A stretch of 55,818 bases of DNA from a bacterium (GTDB lineage: Bacteria > Patescibacteriota > Minisyncoccia > Phycocordibacterales > JAKAEA01): the NCBI GenBank assembly GCA_021785065.1, contig JAJYGQ010000001.1:1-55818 (forward strand), in the 5' to 3' direction. Position numbers and translations under genes: made by a program. The notes under the pieces are model-generated. The model was not told the origin of the DNA. It saw nothing but the letters and a program-made list of their open reading frames with translations, and did no database searches. This document shows, one piece after another, positions 27,135 through 45,946 of this stretch; the stretch's first letter is position 1, and every line of letters begins with the position of its first letter.

Positions 27135-27911
27135 TTAGTAGGGATTGCAAGTACAAACATTATTTCCCGAGCATTGCTGTGCTGCCTTAACTGGTCCACA
27201 ATAGTTGCCAGTTATACTCGTTATTATAGGACCGGGAGTGCTACTCGTTTCTTCCCAACCCCACGTACAACTTTCAGTAACATTCTGGTTGTTAACAAAA
27301 CTTATACCGTACGTTCCGCCTTCAGCAAAACCTCTGCAAGGAAGACCCATAATACACGGATCAGAATTCATTTCCCACGTTGGGTACAACACAATATCGC
27401 TGCTTGGCAAATTAGGGTAAAGACTCTGGGACGTTATGTTTTTAATACGACACTGGGGTCCTGTTACATTTGCGGGATTGGTGACATCTAATGTTGCACT
27501 AAAAACAGCTCCGACGGGTGTATCTGTTCCATAATTATAATAGGAGTAACTCTGATCAAGGTTGGCAGGAATACTCGCGAGGTCTCCCTGTTGCACCAAC
27601 TGATTCATACTTGCTTCGTAGGCGAGTACGTTTTGCTGCATAGAACCAGAAACAGCATTGACGTTACTCGTAATCGTACACGACGCCAGAGTTGTGCCAC
27701 TACAGGTGTAATTAGGTGGCATCGTGCCATTTTTCTCATAGTAGAGCTCTAAAGCAGTCTGGACCTGTCCCACCTCGCTTATTTTTTGAGCATCTCGCGC
27801 TTTTGCTTTTGCTGAACTCACCGAGAAAAATACAATACTTGCCAGCAAGCTGATGATGGCAATGACTACCAAAAGCTCGATGAGGGTGAAAGCGGGGGAG
27901 GATTTTGACAT
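27135..27911 (-). CDS. Orphan type IV pilin-like protein
   Basis: PA/FTLIELLVVIAIISLLASIV, ARDAQKISEVGQVQTALELYY; Cys-rich variable C-terminus. Confidence 0.85.
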   Translation of the reverse strand: MSKSSPAFTLIELLVVIAIISLLASIVFFSVSSAKAKARDAQKISEVGQVQTALELYYEKNGTMPPNYTCSGTTLASCTITSNVNAVSGSMQQNVLAYEASMNQLVQQGDLASIPANLDQSYSYYNYGTDTPVGAVFSATLDVTNPANVTGPQCRIKNITSQSLYPNLPSSDIVLYPTWEMNSDPCIMGLPCRGFAEGGTYGISFVNNQNVTESCTWGWEETSSTPGPIITSITGNYCGPVKAAQQCSGNNVCTCNPY

Positions 27912-27950
27912 AGTGAATTGTTTTTTTAAATAATAACATATTTTGGTATT

Positions 27951-27986
27951 AAAAAAGCGCGCGAGTTCCGTTATGGAATCGCGCGC
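27951..27986 (-). terminator. Intrinsic terminator for the lipoprotein gene
   Basis: GCGCGCGA-TTCC...GGAA-c-TCGCGCGC followed by TTTTTT on the minus strand. Confidence 0.75.
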
Positions 27987-28011
27987 CTCACCCCTCTTTC
28001 TTTACTCTTAC

Positions 28012-28446
28012 TTACCGTCGCCAACATGGCGAGCGGTAGGTATATGTCGGGGGTGGGACATATATTGGCGGGGGAGCTGGTGTCCACGTCGGACACTGCT
28101 GCCGATACTCCTCCTGTGGCACAGGTACTACGCGTACCTGTGGCTGAGGTTGGTACTGCGGTTGTGGGCAGTATGACGGAGCTGGCGCTCCGTAACAACT
28201 GCCGCCGCCGGGGATGTTGACCGACATCGGCCCATCCCCGTACGTTTGCCCATTTACACTTGCTTTTTCTGCAGGAAGCTGGGCATTCCCTGAACCCGTG
28301 GGGACGCCGATGTTAATACTTCGGGCATCCGTCCAGGTTGTTGTAATGGTTCTGCAGTTGTTTGCACAACCGCCCAACCCCATTAACATCAGCGCGGCGC
28401 CAGCCACGAGGATCCCTGCGGGGATCCAATTTTTCTTCGTGCTCAT
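28012..28446 (-). CDS. Proline-rich predicted lipoprotein
   Basis: Signal with lipobox LGG/C; SD AAAGGAG; C-terminal APPPIYVPPPTYTY. Confidence 0.7.
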   Translation of the reverse strand: MSTKKNWIPAGILVAGAALMLMGLGGCANNCRTITTTWTDARSINIGVPTGSGNAQLPAEKASVNGQTYGDGPMSVNIPGGGSCYGAPAPSYCPQPQYQPQPQVRVVPVPQEEYRQQCPTWTPAPPPIYVPPPTYTYRSPCWRR

Positions 28447-30040: not shown

Positions 30041-30925
30041 ATGCCCGAAGAAACATTCGAATCTCAACCACTACGTGCATTAACTCCTGTCGCTGAATTA
30101 ATCGAGCGAGCGTGGCAGCGCTTTAAGCGCCTGTTCTCAGGATTATTTCCTTGGCTGGTAATTTCGACATTAGGAGGGTTTATGGCGGTGCTTTCTCATG
30201 CGGCGTTACCACTGTGGTCGCGGCTTATTCTGTCGATAGTAGGAATGGTTGTTCTCCTCCTTTCCTATTTAGCGCAGGTGCGAATTATTTCTGGCGTTGA
30301 ACGTGAGCCGGGCGATATTATTAATAACGGTCGCGTTGCCCTGAAACTTTTTTTCCCGTATGTGTGGCTCGTGCTGATTGAAATTTTTATTTTTTTGAGC
30401 GGCGCTTTACTTTTTGTGATACCCGCCATAATTTTTGGTGTGTATTTACTGCTCACGCCGTTCGTGTTTGTTGTTGAGGGGAGTCGGGGATTGCCGGCGT
30501 TTACTCGCTCGTGGGGGTACATAACCGGCCGTTGGTGGGCAAGCTTGTGGCGGTTGCTCGTGGCGCTTTTCTTGAGTTTGGTTGTTATGTCGGTGATCAA
30601 TTTTATTCTTGCACTGATCTTCGGCTCTTTCTCAACGATGCACGCGTCGTCGTGGAGTATTATGCTTTTCCAGCAGCTCGTTGAAGCGTTTCTGATTGTG
30701 CCCTGGCTACTGTGCTATCTGTTTGAGTTTTATCAGGACGTTCGAAGTGCCAAACCAGTGGCGCAACCCAGTGATGAAAAAACCGCCCGTCTTTGGCTGG
30801 TTATTTTTCTGATACTTGGTATTATTCTAGCGCTCGTGTTTGCTTTTGGAACGGTCACGCATACCGCTGCACATAGTAGCGTTACGACTGGCCTCTTTGA
30901 GCAAAATTTTGTGCAATCGTGGTAG
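30041..30925 (+). CDS. Multi-pass membrane protein, uncharacterised
   Basis: About six hydrophobic segments, ERAWQRF and SWGYITGRWW motifs; the track start 29915 overlaps the tRNA, so it was shortened. Confidence 0.7.
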   Translation: MPEETFESQPLRALTPVAELIERAWQRFKRLFSGLFPWLVISTLGGFMAVLSHAALPLWSRLILSIVGMVVLLLSYLAQVRIISGVEREPGDIINNGRVALKLFFPYVWLVLIEIFIFLSGALLFVIPAIIFGVYLLLTPFVFVVEGSRGLPAFTRSWGYITGRWWASLWRLLVALFLSLVVMSVINFILALIFGSFSTMHASSWSIMLFQQLVEAFLIVPWLLCYLFEFYQDVRSAKPVAQPSDEKTARLWLVIFLILGIILALVFAFGTVTHTAAHSSVTTGLFEQNFVQSW

Positions 30926-30936
30926 CACAATACTAT

Positions 30937-31009
30937 GCCAGCGTAGCTCAGTTGGTAGAGCAACGCACTCGTAACGCGTAGGTCGCCGGTTCGATTCCGG
31001 CCGCTGGCT
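30937..31009 (+). tRNA. tRNA-Thr(CGT)
   Basis: GCCAGCG/CGCTGGC acceptor, loop CTCGTAA, U73; CCA not encoded. Confidence 0.95.
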
Positions 31010-31044
31010 CCTTTACTTTTTAAATATATTTGAGTAGTATAGTA

Positions 31045-31309
31045 CCTGCTCCCACGAGTATGGGAACTGACAACTCCCGGCAGATTTCTTACCCTGCACA
31101 TGCTCGTGCTAGATAGGTCTTAGGCGGTTTGGGACCATCTACGAAACCCTGCTATCAGAAGCGATGGCAGGATGGGGAGATTTAAGCTTCGCTTGGAAGG
31201 TGTTTCCTTCCGCCCAGGATACCACGACCGGTGTCTCCGGTGGATTTGGTTCCTGGTTTCTCCGGCCCCACCCCTCGCTGCTTGAGAAGGTGTGGTCGGA
31301 GATTTTTTT
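31045..31309 (+). ncRNA. Candidate structured non-coding RNA, family unrecognised
   Basis: ORF-free GC-rich stretch after TATAGT with seven or more consecutive stems by eye, ending in a hairpin plus T8; strand inferred. Confidence 0.4.
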
Positions 31310-31323
31310 TATGTATAAAATAA

Positions 31324-31356
31324 AATCAGCTCGTCCCGAGAAGGGACGAGCTGATT
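31324..31356 (-). terminator. Intrinsic terminator for the GNAT gene
   Basis: AATCAGCTCGTCCC-gagaa-GGGACGAGCTGATT perfect 14-bp stem; T-rich run follows on the minus strand. Confidence 0.85.
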
Positions 31357-31366
31357 GAAGATTGCT

Positions 31367-31870
31367 TTAGAGTGTAATGGAATAATCCCTTTCCTCACAT
31401 TGTAGGGAAAATGGTAACGCAATCTCACCACTTTTAATTTTCTGAAAAATGCGTTTGATGATTTCGCTGCCGCCCGCGCCGAGGTAAATGTTGTGTACGT
31501 GGCGGTCGTGTGCGTGTCGTAAAAAGATCTCGACTTGCTGACAGCCATAGCCTTGCTGTCGGAAATTCTCGTCTACTATGAGCCGAAACACTTTCCAGGT
31601 GTAGGTGCCGTTGGCACGATGCTCTTGCCAGAATATTCCGCCGATGAGTTCGCCTCTTTTTCCAAGCTGCTCTGCTTGGGAGAAGAGTAGACCTTCGTAG
31701 CCACGAGCAAATAACGTTTGTAATAGCTCGTTGGCCGGTAAGTGACGAACGTCGCTTGTTGCGGTAGCAAATGTGCTGCCAGGATCTGGTTTTTGCACGA
31801 GGCCAACAATAATTGCTCGCCAAGGATCTCCGTCTCCTAGTTCGCTAACGATATGAGCTTGTAAAGCCAT
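31367..31870 (-). CDS. GNAT family N-acetyltransferase
   Basis: LIVDENFRQQGYG acetyl-CoA motif A; SD AAAGGAGG before ATG 31870. Confidence 0.75.
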   Translation of the reverse strand: MALQAHIVSELGDGDPWRAIIVGLVQKPDPGSTFATATSDVRHLPANELLQTLFARGYEGLLFSQAEQLGKRGELIGGIFWQEHRANGTYTWKVFRLIVDENFRQQGYGCQQVEIFLRHAHDRHVHNIYLGAGGSEIIKRIFQKIKSGEIALPFSLQCEERDYSITL

Positions 31871-31941
31871 AGCAACCTCCTTTCCATAAAATGGTGCATG
31901 ACCTCCTACTGGCAGCATACGCTAATTTAGGGTACATTTCA

Positions 31942-45540: not shown

Positions 45541-45612
45541 AGTATACATATTTAGTATAACATCTTTTTCTTTTTGTCTTTATAAAAATATTTTTCAAAC
45601 AAAAAGGACCCT

Positions 45613-45813
45613 CTAGGGGGTCCTAAAAAATTTTTGCCGACGGGCGGCGGCACTTGCTACACCTCCAAGGTGTCCAAGTTGCCGTCGCACTTCTCTGATT
45701 TCTGCATCAGAGAGGCGAAAACGCCTTTCAATTTTTAACCGTGCCACCCCAAAGGGGATTCCGGCACGGTAGAGTCTTCGAATCTCTATTACAGCTTCTC
45801 CGATTCGATTCAT
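45613..45813 (-). CDS. Small Arg-rich hypothetical protein (66 aa)
   Basis: TTGACT-N16-TACAAT promoter, SD AAAGGAG, terminator hairpin over the stop codon. Confidence 0.55.
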   Translation of the reverse strand: MNRIGEAVIEIRRLYRAGIPFGVARLKIERRFRLSDAEIREVRRQLGHLGGVASAAARRQKFFRTP

Positions 45814-45946
45814 TTTTTGTGCTCCTTTCAAAAAACAGACTACATTGTAACATGAATAAATAAAAAGTCAATAAATATTGTTGATAATACAGAGCATCCG
45901 ATTATGTGGTGCTAGTAGGCCAAAATATGCTACTATAGCTTTGAGT

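What the first reader, a model, noticed from the sequence alone, without database searches (positions are those of the whole stretch)
31045..31309. Candidate novel multi-domain structured RNA of about 265 nt downstream of tRNA-Thr(CGT)
Seen: an ORF-free stretch after TATAGT (31038-43), ending in T8. Pairings by eye: three-way junction CACGAGTATG/CATGCTCGTG (31053-62/31099-108) enclosing GGGA/TCCC and GCAG/CTGC; TAGAT-GGTC/GACC-ATCTA; CCTGCTATC/GATGGCAGG (31148-56/31163-71); AAGC/GCTT; GGAAGG/CCTTCC; nested CCAGGA/TCCTGG-ACCA/TGGT-ACCGG/CCGGT; and TCTCCGGCC/GGTCGGAGA before the T-tract. GGAGATTT occurs twice (31176, 31298), and either copy can pair with TCTCC (31259), suggesting a switch. No match by eye to RNase P, SRP, tmRNA, 6S or T-box cores. 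Inference: an unannotated ncRNA; large tRNA-adjacent ncRNAs such as GOLLD are precedents.
Basis: partly seen in the sequence, partly recalled or inferred. Interest (0 to 1): 0.6.

Follow-up and report, generated by a model that had tools for sequence, protein, structure and literature searches.

The report
Strain-specific structured RNA after tRNA-Thr
A 265-base stretch just after a threonine tRNA gene in a tiny-genome bacterium folds into an unusually stable, well-defined RNA shape, but it occurs only in this strain, so it is a credible yet unproven orphan RNA gene.

Summary
The structure is real. Window 31045-31310 (+) folds into a four-way-junction domain, three hairpins and an intrinsic terminator (MFE -111.5 kcal/mol, z -4.2 to -4.8). 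Each sub-domain is significant alone, and the + strand ensemble is unusually well defined. It is among the most structured non-rRNA stretches of this 566-kb, CPR-like genome.

No Rfam family matches. It is not SRP, 6S, RNase P or tmRNA.

No homologue was found either. At the same site both sister species have only about 90 nt between tRNA-Thr(CGT) and a GNAT gene. A single-sequence covariance model, BLAST and exact-word scans found nothing in several hundred related genomes or in the phage, plasmid, viral and metagenome sets.

Public contigs from one mine-drainage study confirm the sequence. They also show a second allele: near-identical flanks, but 289 other letters in place of 31027-31303.

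My reading is a strain-variable noncoding cassette in the 3' trailer of tRNA-Thr. It is probably transcribed with the tRNA and stops at its own terminator. Function, expression and covariation are untested. The repeated GGAGATTT is at chance level. Interest is modest.

Side observation: no Ffh, FtsY or SRP RNA was detected in this genome or in sampled relatives.

The parts
30937..31011 (+). tRNA-Thr(CGT). No CCA is encoded. It is probably the 5' neighbour on the same transcript.
   Evidence: ARAGORN; Rfam tRNA 69.6 bits; sequence
31012..31026 (+). AT-rich spacer shared by both alleles (left flank of the cassette)
   Evidence: In run X4, contig record 24 matches 30800-31026 with 0 differences and then diverges. 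X3 record 21 stops matching at 31026.
31027..31303 (.). Variable cassette: 277 nt here, replaced by 289 other letters in a second allele from the same study. Absent from sister species G001 and G002.
   Evidence: read laying joint 31026>31304, 'skips 277, 289 letters between'; sister loci L012 and L013
31049..31179 (+). Domain 1: four-way junction. P1 is 31049-53/31175-79. P2 is 31054-61/31100-07 with an inner three-way junction (31062-65/31075-78 and 31080-83/31094-97). P3 is 31110-41. P4 is 31148-56/31163-71.
   Evidence: MFE equals centroid; alone -50.5 kcal/mol, z -3.31, 0 of 200 shuffles as good
31184..31256 (+). Domain 2: three consecutive hairpins (31184-94, 31195-211, 31214-56)
   Evidence: alone -33.6 kcal/mol, z -4.41
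31259..31310 (+). Intrinsic terminator: 44-nt interrupted hairpin 31259-31302 followed by T8 at 31303-31310
   Evidence: inverted repeat I3; alone z -4.70. The simple scan missed it because its loop is longer than 8 nt.
31324..31356 (-). 14-bp perfect hairpin with a T-rich tail on the minus strand: terminator of the convergent GNAT gene, not part of the RNA
   Evidence: Terminator scan; the repeat finder I1
31367..31918 (-). Convergent GNAT-like acetyltransferase gene (183 aa), present only in this genus between tRNA-Thr and prfB
   Evidence: Pfam PF00583, E 4e-4; sister-species genes; 48% identity to the L051 copy

Best explanation
The stretch is a strain-specific, recently acquired and replaceable noncoding cassette. 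It sits in the 3' trailer of tRNA-Thr(CGT) and specifies a stable, well-folded RNA of about 265-300 nt on the + strand.

Proposed mechanism:
1. Transcription enters from upstream, from the membrane-protein gene and tRNA-Thr unit.
2. RNase P and a 3' endonuclease such as RNase Z release the CCA-less tRNA.
3. The trailer folds co-transcriptionally into a four-way-junction domain plus three hairpins.
4. Transcription stops at the cassette's own hairpin-T8 terminator.

The released RNA would be an accessory, non-core structured RNA. A protein- or ligand-binding scaffold seems more likely than a base-pairing sRNA.

Shown here: the fold statistics, the strand asymmetry, the terminator, the single copy, the absence from sister species, and the second allele.

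Inferred: co-transcription with the tRNA, processing, stability, and any function.
For: - The fold is far better than shuffles for the whole stretch and for each of three sub-domains.
- MFE equals the centroid. Ensemble diversity is 16.3, against a shuffle minimum of 25.5 and 40.5 on the minus strand. The + strand is 8.3 kcal/mol more stable than the - strand.
- The hairpin plus T8 reads as a terminator only on the + strand.
- No sigma-70-like promoter lies between the tRNA and the RNA, and the tRNA lacks an encoded CCA. Both fit a trailer transcript.
- It ranks with RNase P and rRNA windows for structure in this genome.
- GC is 54.7%, against 45.9% for the genome. tmRNA is 53.5% and the six tRNAs of the window are 54-64%.
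- No convincing ORF, and no protein relative of the longest frame.
- An independent public assembly reproduces the sequence exactly (X1 record 1). A second run holds pieces of it with 0 differences.
- A second allele of similar length (289 vs 277 letters) sits at the same site. It appears to keep the last bases of the terminator's 3' strand and the T run, because X3 record 23 matches from 31295.
Against: - No homologue was found, so there is no covariation support. It is absent at the syntenic site in both sister species.
- The covariance model R1 found only G000 in 12 family, 151 order, 151 class and 151 phylum genomes (the sets overlap).
- BLAST found only G000 in 41 relatives. In 401 class genomes the only other matches were 17-32 nt chance hits.
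- No expression data exist.
- Absence from close relatives in a 566-kb genome means it cannot be a core function, and it may be neutral foreign DNA.
- Hairpin-rich DNA gives similar z-scores on both strands (z -4.06 on minus).
- A single-sequence model has limited reach.
Confidence: 0.45

Rival explanations
1. Functionless or nearly functionless foreign DNA. A short piece taken up and recombined into a variable spot between tRNA-Thr and the GNAT gene. Its hairpins do nothing beyond perhaps adding a terminator for the tRNA transcript.
For: - Absent in both sister species, which have only about 90 nt with one bidirectional hairpin at this site.
- Single copy, with no relative anywhere searched.
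- The whole body is replaced in a near-identical strain.
- The neighbouring GNAT gene is also fast-changing: 48% identity against 86% for prfB. The spacer is therefore a variable spot.
- GC is 8-9 points above the genome.
Against: - Random or decaying DNA is not expected to give three independently significant sub-domains or an ensemble better defined than 100 of 100 shuffles.
- The + strand advantage and the + strand terminator point to selection on an RNA, at least in the donor.
- CPR-size genomes carry little idle DNA.
Confidence: 0.33
2. A cis-acting switch, either a riboswitch or an attenuator. The four-way junction would be a sensor. Its P1 3' strand (GGAGA, 31176-80) competes with the terminator 3' strand for UCUCC (31259-63). 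That would set read-through into the antisense of the GNAT gene and on into prfB-ftsEX.
For: - The forced alternative pairing costs only 4.3 kcal/mol (-107.2 vs -111.5).
- prfB lies on the same strand 580 nt downstream, and in 8 family loci tRNA-Thr(CGT) directly precedes prfB.
- The hairpin at 31324-56 has no T run on the + strand.
Against: - No known aptamer matches.
- The repeated 8-mer is at chance level.
- 73 nt of stable hairpins separate the competing strands.
- No gene starts after the terminator on the + strand.
- The sister species manage without it.
Confidence: 0.07
3. A DNA-level mobile or recombination relic: a non-autonomous transposable element (MITE or IS200/IS605-derived), or the scar of an element that integrated next to the tRNA.
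For: - It lies just 3' of a tRNA gene, a classical integration spot (established knowledge).
- It is a clean insertion relative to the sister species.
- Two different inserts occupy one site.
- An imperfect AT-rich palindrome is centred on the left boundary (I2).
Against: - Single copy in the genome.
- No terminal inverted repeats and no flanking direct repeat at 31027/31303.
- No TnpB-type domain and no tyrosine recombinase found in the assembled genome.
- No partial tRNA duplicate was found: the blastn-short query began just after the tRNA and found no second copy of the trailer.
Confidence: 0.08
4. A very divergent copy of a housekeeping RNA (SRP RNA, 6S, RNase P or tmRNA), or a degraded protein-coding gene.
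For: - The size resembles a Bacillus-type SRP RNA.
- No SRP RNA or 6S RNA was detected elsewhere in the genome.
Against: - RNase P RNA (C6:1060-1498, 79.9 bits) and tmRNA (C20:46796-47180, 92.2 bits) lie elsewhere.
- No Ffh or FtsY partner was found.
- A housekeeping RNA would be present in the sister species, but the site is empty there and R1 finds nothing.
- The longest frame has no relative among 5.8 billion proteins.
Confidence: 0.03

Closest known systems
sRNAs derived from tRNA 3' external transcribed spacers (the E. coli 3'ETS-leuZ type). This is recalled knowledge; no paper was seen here, because one search failed on term syntax and was not repeated.
   Same: It lies between the 3' end of a tRNA gene and the intrinsic terminator of that transcript, with no recognisable promoter of its own. 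It would be released by tRNA processing.
   Different: It is about 265-300 nt with a multi-helix junction, against some tens of nucleotides. No target complementarity was found: the longest exact match elsewhere in the genome is 14 nt. It is strain-specific, and its processing and stability are untested.
GOLLD and ROOL large ornate RNAs. I saw passages of PMC12286853 and the listing of PMC5737381.
   Same: Structured noncoding RNAs of unknown function that are often encoded near tRNA genes.
   Different: Those are 500-800+ nt, sit in phages and prophages, and are conserved families in Rfam. This one is 265 nt, has no phage genes around it, no Rfam match and no relatives.
Transcription-terminating riboswitches
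   Same: A junction domain whose closing-helix 3' strand can alternatively pair with the 5' strand of a downstream terminator.
   Different: No known aptamer matches, no downstream gene on the strand, and a long hairpin-filled spacer. The complementarity is only 5 bp and at chance level.
Horizontal replacement of intergenic regions between near-identical strains ('regulatory switching' in enterobacteria). Recalled; no paper was seen here.
   Same: Flanks are 99-100% identical while the intergenic body cannot be aligned between strains of one population.
   Different: The replaced segment here is not a promoter region between genes. It is a terminator-bearing structured module between two convergent transcription units.

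Membership tests
Any Rfam 15 family (4227 models) | Covariance-model score at or above the family's gathering score | tested here: not met
   In the window scan only 7 tRNAs pass. In the 551-nt scan at E<=10, the only matches inside the candidate are P8 (31292-31347, 16.1 bits, gathering 60) and NsiR1 (31247-31310, 14.9 bits, gathering 39). Both cover the terminator.
Bacterial SRP RNA (RF00169, RF01854) | Model match | tested here: not met
   No match at E<=1 and E<=10 in the whole genome, and none in the region.
Bacterial SRP RNA (RF00169, RF01854) | Ffh partner with an M domain in the genome | tested here: not met
   PF02978 in 0 of 12 family genomes. PF00448 in 0 of 12 above the cut-off. 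tblastn with E. coli Ffh against G000 gave a best E of 0.63, while the controls rplS, trmD and rpsP were found.
6S RNA (RF00013) | Model match, a rod with a central bubble, and conservation in related species | tested here: not met
   No match. The fold is a junction plus separate hairpins. It is absent from the sister species.
RNase P RNA and tmRNA | Being the genome's copy of that RNA | tested here: not met
   Both lie elsewhere: C6:1060-1498 (79.9 bits) and C20:46796-47180 (92.2 bits).
GOLLD / ROOL / OLE / raiA large ncRNAs | Model match and a size of several hundred to 800 nt | tested here: not met
   No Rfam hit. Length is 265 nt.
GOLLD / ROOL / OLE / raiA large ncRNAs | Location near tRNA genes | tested here: met
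   It starts 34 nt after tRNA-Thr(CGT). The phage context typical of GOLLD and ROOL is missing.
Riboswitch / T-box leader | Known aptamer, and a regulated gene directly downstream on the same strand | tested here: not met
   No aptamer match. The next feature is the convergent GNAT gene.
Riboswitch / T-box leader | Mutually exclusive terminator and antiterminator | tested here: inconclusive
   The alternative fold is only 4.3 kcal/mol above the MFE, but it rests on 5 bp and a chance-level repeat.
tRNA 3'-trailer (3'ETS) derived RNA | Lies between the tRNA 3' end and the transcript's terminator without its own promoter | tested here: met
   The promoter scan is a simple consensus scan.
tRNA 3'-trailer (3'ETS) derived RNA | Accumulates as a discrete processed RNA | not testable with these tools
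   No RNA run was listed for this DNA. Contigs cannot show transcript ends.
MITE / IS200-IS605-derived / REP-like element | Several copies per genome | tested here: not met
   Single copy. blastn-short with word size 7 gives only matches of 14 nt or less elsewhere.
MITE / IS200-IS605-derived / REP-like element | Terminal inverted repeats or target-site duplication at the boundaries | tested here: not met
   The repeat finder on 30990-31380 shows none at 31027/31303. No TnpB-type domain in the genome.

The most novel reading that the evidence does not exclude
The spacer after tRNA-Thr(CGT) is a dedicated, hypervariable RNA-cassette locus. Near-identical strains of one CPR population would carry different, equally long, highly structured RNAs at exactly the same site, exchanged by recombination. 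These would be fast-evolving functional RNAs under diversifying selection, for example in phage or host interaction. That would be a kind of strain-level RNA polymorphism not yet described in these bacteria.
Probability: 0.12. Interest if true: 0.7.

Novelty: new member of a known kind. Interest (0 to 1): 0.3.

Why it matters
If it is expressed, this would be a large structured RNA with no family in an ultra-small CPR-type genome. Almost nothing is known about noncoding RNA in these genomes, and spare DNA in them is rare.

The population data add a specific and cheap test. Two non-alignable alleles of equal size sit between identical flanks. Aligning them would show at once whether a fold is being conserved while the sequence is replaced, or whether this is just a dumping site for foreign DNA.

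As it stands it is one orphan locus in one strain. There is no covariation and no expression evidence, so the finding is a lead, not a discovery.

Tried and rejected
Homologue searches that found nothing:
- BLAST of 309 nt in 41 relatives: only G000.
- BLAST of 284 nt in 401 class genomes: 23 other genomes gave only 17-32 nt matches at E 0.009-0.09. I inspected 6 of them; 5 lie inside long open frames of unrelated proteins.
- Covariance model R1 (214 positions, single sequence, MFE structure): only G000 in 12 family, 151 order, 151 class and 151 phylum genomes (the sets overlap).
- Phages: 3 records with 26-36 nt matches at E 0.9. Plasmids: none.
- Metagenome contigs with the GNAT protein: 378 pattern hits, 0 confirmed. 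With a flank pattern: 0.
- An exact 22-mer in genome contigs and viral contigs: 0 each.
- The GNAT protein in genome contigs: one locus, L051, with the sister-species arrangement.
- The 81-aa frame against 5.8 billion proteins: nothing.
- Low-stringency blastn in the own genome: nothing longer than 14 nt.

Expression: no RNA holder was listed by the look-up of sequencing runs. The four runs laid were DNA contigs, so they say nothing about transcripts.

The letters of the second allele could not be read. Read laying prints at most 40 letters between the sides of a joint, and its cap is one call.

Ideas rejected:
- SRP RNA, 6S, RNase P and tmRNA (see Membership tests).
- A small protein gene.
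- A GNAT toxin-antitoxin or defence module: NCBIfam gave only weak generic acetyltransferase hits and PADLOC gave none.
- Simple inversion as the second allele: the lengths differ (277 vs 289) and no strand-change joint was reported.

Tools and literature:
- Supplementary files of papers were not consulted.
- Literature searches for structured RNAs in Patescibacteria gave 0 papers.
- Searches on SRP in CPR or Patescibacteria gave no statement on its presence or absence in the passages I read. The ftsY and SRP genes named in the TM7x papers carry the host's locus tags.
- Structure prediction, complex prediction and the protein atlas were not used, because there is no protein to test.

Full report
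**Setting**

The window is contig C17 of a 566-kb assembly (20 contigs, 92% complete, 45.9% GC). Its relatives all have genomes of 0.5-1.2 Mb.

The gene order around the finding is:
- tRNA-Thr(GGT)
- a membrane-protein gene, ending at 30925
- tRNA-Thr(CGT), 30937-31011
- the candidate
- a 14-bp hairpin at 31324-56
- a convergent GNAT-like gene, 31367-31918 on the minus strand
- prfB, ftsE, ftsX and pyrG on the plus strand

Yes. They are reproduced by the minimum-free-energy fold, which is identical to the centroid.

- Energy is -111.5 kcal/mol against -89.5 +/- 5.3 for 200 dinucleotide shuffles (z -4.17, none as good). My own shuffles gave z -4.77.
- The signal does not come from the terminator alone. 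The four-way junction (31049-31179) gives z -3.3, the three middle hairpins (31184-31256) z -4.4, and the terminator (31257-31309) z -4.7.
- The + strand ensemble is unusually well defined: mean base-pair distance 16.3. The 100 shuffles average 63.7 with a minimum of 25.5, and the minus strand gives 40.5.
- The + strand is 8.3 kcal/mol more stable than the minus strand.
- Only the + strand has hairpin-plus-T8 terminator geometry.

Against the genome's own background:
- 20 of 1532 windows of 265 nt (four contigs, + strand only) have an equal or lower GC-corrected energy. These are mostly rRNA-like stretches, RNase P RNA and windows overlapping the candidate. The overlapping window at 31123 ranks first.
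- Among 81 ORF-free gaps of 150-450 nt (99 gaps of 150 nt or more, 18 longer ones skipped), the gap 31102-31366 ranks second.

- The T run is 31303-31310.
- Short frames exist but are implausible. The longest has no relative.
- TATAGT has no usable -35, and the consensus scan finds no + strand promoter.
- The duplicated GGAGATTT is at chance level.

**What it is not**

- No Rfam family reaches its gathering score. In a permissive scan only noise over the terminator appears.
- RNase P RNA and tmRNA are elsewhere in the genome.
- SRP RNA and 6S RNA are not detected anywhere in the genome. The candidate still cannot be either, because it is missing from the sister species and there is no Ffh or FtsY for an SRP RNA to serve.
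- It is single copy.
- It has no terminal inverted or flanking direct repeats.
- The assembly shows no TnpB-type domain and no tyrosine recombinase.

**Comparative evidence**

tRNA-Thr(CGT) followed by prfB is conserved across the family. The tRNA sits upstream of prfB in 10 of the 11 prfB loci examined. The eleventh, L015, starts at a contig end (L018 and L021 come from unpublished genomes G010 and G004).

Only the three species of this genus carry the antisense GNAT gene between the two. In the two sister species, the tRNA-to-GNAT spacer is about 90 nt with one bidirectional hairpin.

The 277-nt body is therefore an insertion specific to this lineage. Nothing similar was found elsewhere; the searches are listed under Tried and rejected. 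A single-sequence model and sampled genomes limit the reach of these searches, so I write 'not found in those searched'.

**Population evidence**

Four DNA runs of one mine-drainage study hold parts of the locus.

- One run, possibly the source of this DNA, has an 8.7-kb contig identical over 30800-31500.
- A second run holds two pieces of the candidate with no differences.
- In a third run, an 828-nt contig matches 30800-31026 (0 differences) and 31304-31366 (1 difference), but carries 289 other letters in place of 31027-31303.
- Two contigs of a fourth run break at the same left boundary and resume at 31295.

So there are two alleles: near-identical flanks, a non-alignable body (under 80% alike), similar length, and probably the same terminator end. 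I could not read the alternative letters.

**Most likely mechanism**

Shown: a + strand fold with a terminator, no own promoter, and a CCA-less tRNA immediately upstream.

Inferred: the stretch is transcribed as the 3' trailer of the tRNA-Thr transcript, freed by tRNA 3' processing, and ended at its own terminator. That would give a stable accessory RNA of about 265-300 nt.

I put 0.45 on a real, expressed structured RNA of accessory function.

Rivals:
- Essentially neutral foreign DNA parked in a variable spot: 0.33. The neighbouring GNAT is also fast-changing, at 48% identity against 86% for prfB.
- A mobile-element relic: 0.08.
- A read-through switch: 0.07. The swapped pairing costs only 4.3 kcal/mol, but nothing lies downstream to regulate except antisense GNAT and then prfB, and the repeat is at chance level.
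- A divergent housekeeping RNA or a dead gene: 0.03.

**Comparison with known systems**

In position it works like a tRNA 3'-trailer RNA. It shares tRNA adjacency with GOLLD and ROOL (PMC12286853, passages seen). It fails every membership test for a curated family. It is an orphan.

**Verdict**

Interest is modest at 0.3. The one cheap decisive step is to read and fold the second allele.

**Seen in passing**

No SRP component was detectable in this genome, or in the sampled relatives up to phylum level. Details are under Noticed in passing. If confirmed with full-sensitivity searches, this may be of more general interest than the finding itself.

Noticed in passing
Whole genome G000 and relatives (not a window coordinate): No signal-recognition-particle component was detected.
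- SRP RNA models RF00169 and RF01854: 0 hits in G000 and in 0 of 5 relatives.
- Ffh M domain PF02978: 0 of 12 family genomes.
- SRP54-type GTPase PF00448: only short, partial matches over the N-terminal quarter to third of the profile. These occurred in 0 of 12 family genomes above the cut-off, 1 of 121 order, 2 of 201 class and 1 of 151 phylum genomes.
- E. coli Ffh by tblastn against G000: best E 0.63, while the rplS, trmD and rpsP controls hit. It found nothing in 5 near-complete relatives.
- A recalled G-domain motif is absent from all six frames of G000.

The tool's controls ring in 14 of 14 model genomes, but I had no positive control inside this phylum. My paper searches found no statement either way. 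This needs a full-sensitivity check.
   Followed up: partly
G000:C10:63522-63935 (locus L049:1523-1936), outside the window: The most structured ORF-free gap of the genome. A 461-nt stretch including it folds at -185.6 kcal/mol (z -8.9). It has 21-nt outer inverted repeats 334 nt apart, enclosing a perfect tandem duplication of a 74-nt unit. No Rfam match at E<=0.1. Its nature is unknown.
   Followed up: partly
G000:C19:2439-2793 minus strand (locus L050), outside the window: Directly after tRNA-Asn(GTT) lies a perfect TTGACA-N17-TATAAT promoter. It is followed by about 330 nt of strongly structured, Rfam-negative sequence (gap z -4.45), ending at the start of a 164-aa hypothetical gene. This is a second tRNA-adjacent structured noncoding stretch in the genome, here looking like a long leader.
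   Followed up: partly
window 45550-45877: The third most structured ORF-free gap (z -6.4). It holds a small minus-strand ORF at 45613-45831 (72 aa from TTG; an internal ATG gives 66 aa) packed with hairpins, plus a bidirectional terminator at about 45603-45625. This shows that strong folding in this genome does not by itself exclude a small gene.
   Followed up: partly
window 31367-31918 (-) and loci L012, L013, L051: The GNAT-like gene sits antisense between tRNA-Thr(CGT) and prfB only in this genus. It is far more divergent between species (48% identity) than the adjacent prfB (86%). It has no specific NCBIfam or PADLOC assignment. Its annotated start overlaps the prfB start.
   Followed up: partly
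G000:C6:1060-1498, outside the window: The RNase P RNA scores 79.9 bits, below the Rfam gathering score of 100 for RF00010. Standard annotation would miss it.
   Followed up: no
window 27135-27911 (-) and 27931-28195: A 258-aa protein with a type IV pilin-like N-terminus (the pilin likeness is my reading of the N-terminal sequence and was not searched). The neighbouring window starting at 27931 is the second most structured 265-nt window of four contigs, although it overlaps a 144-aa proline-rich ORF.
   Followed up: no
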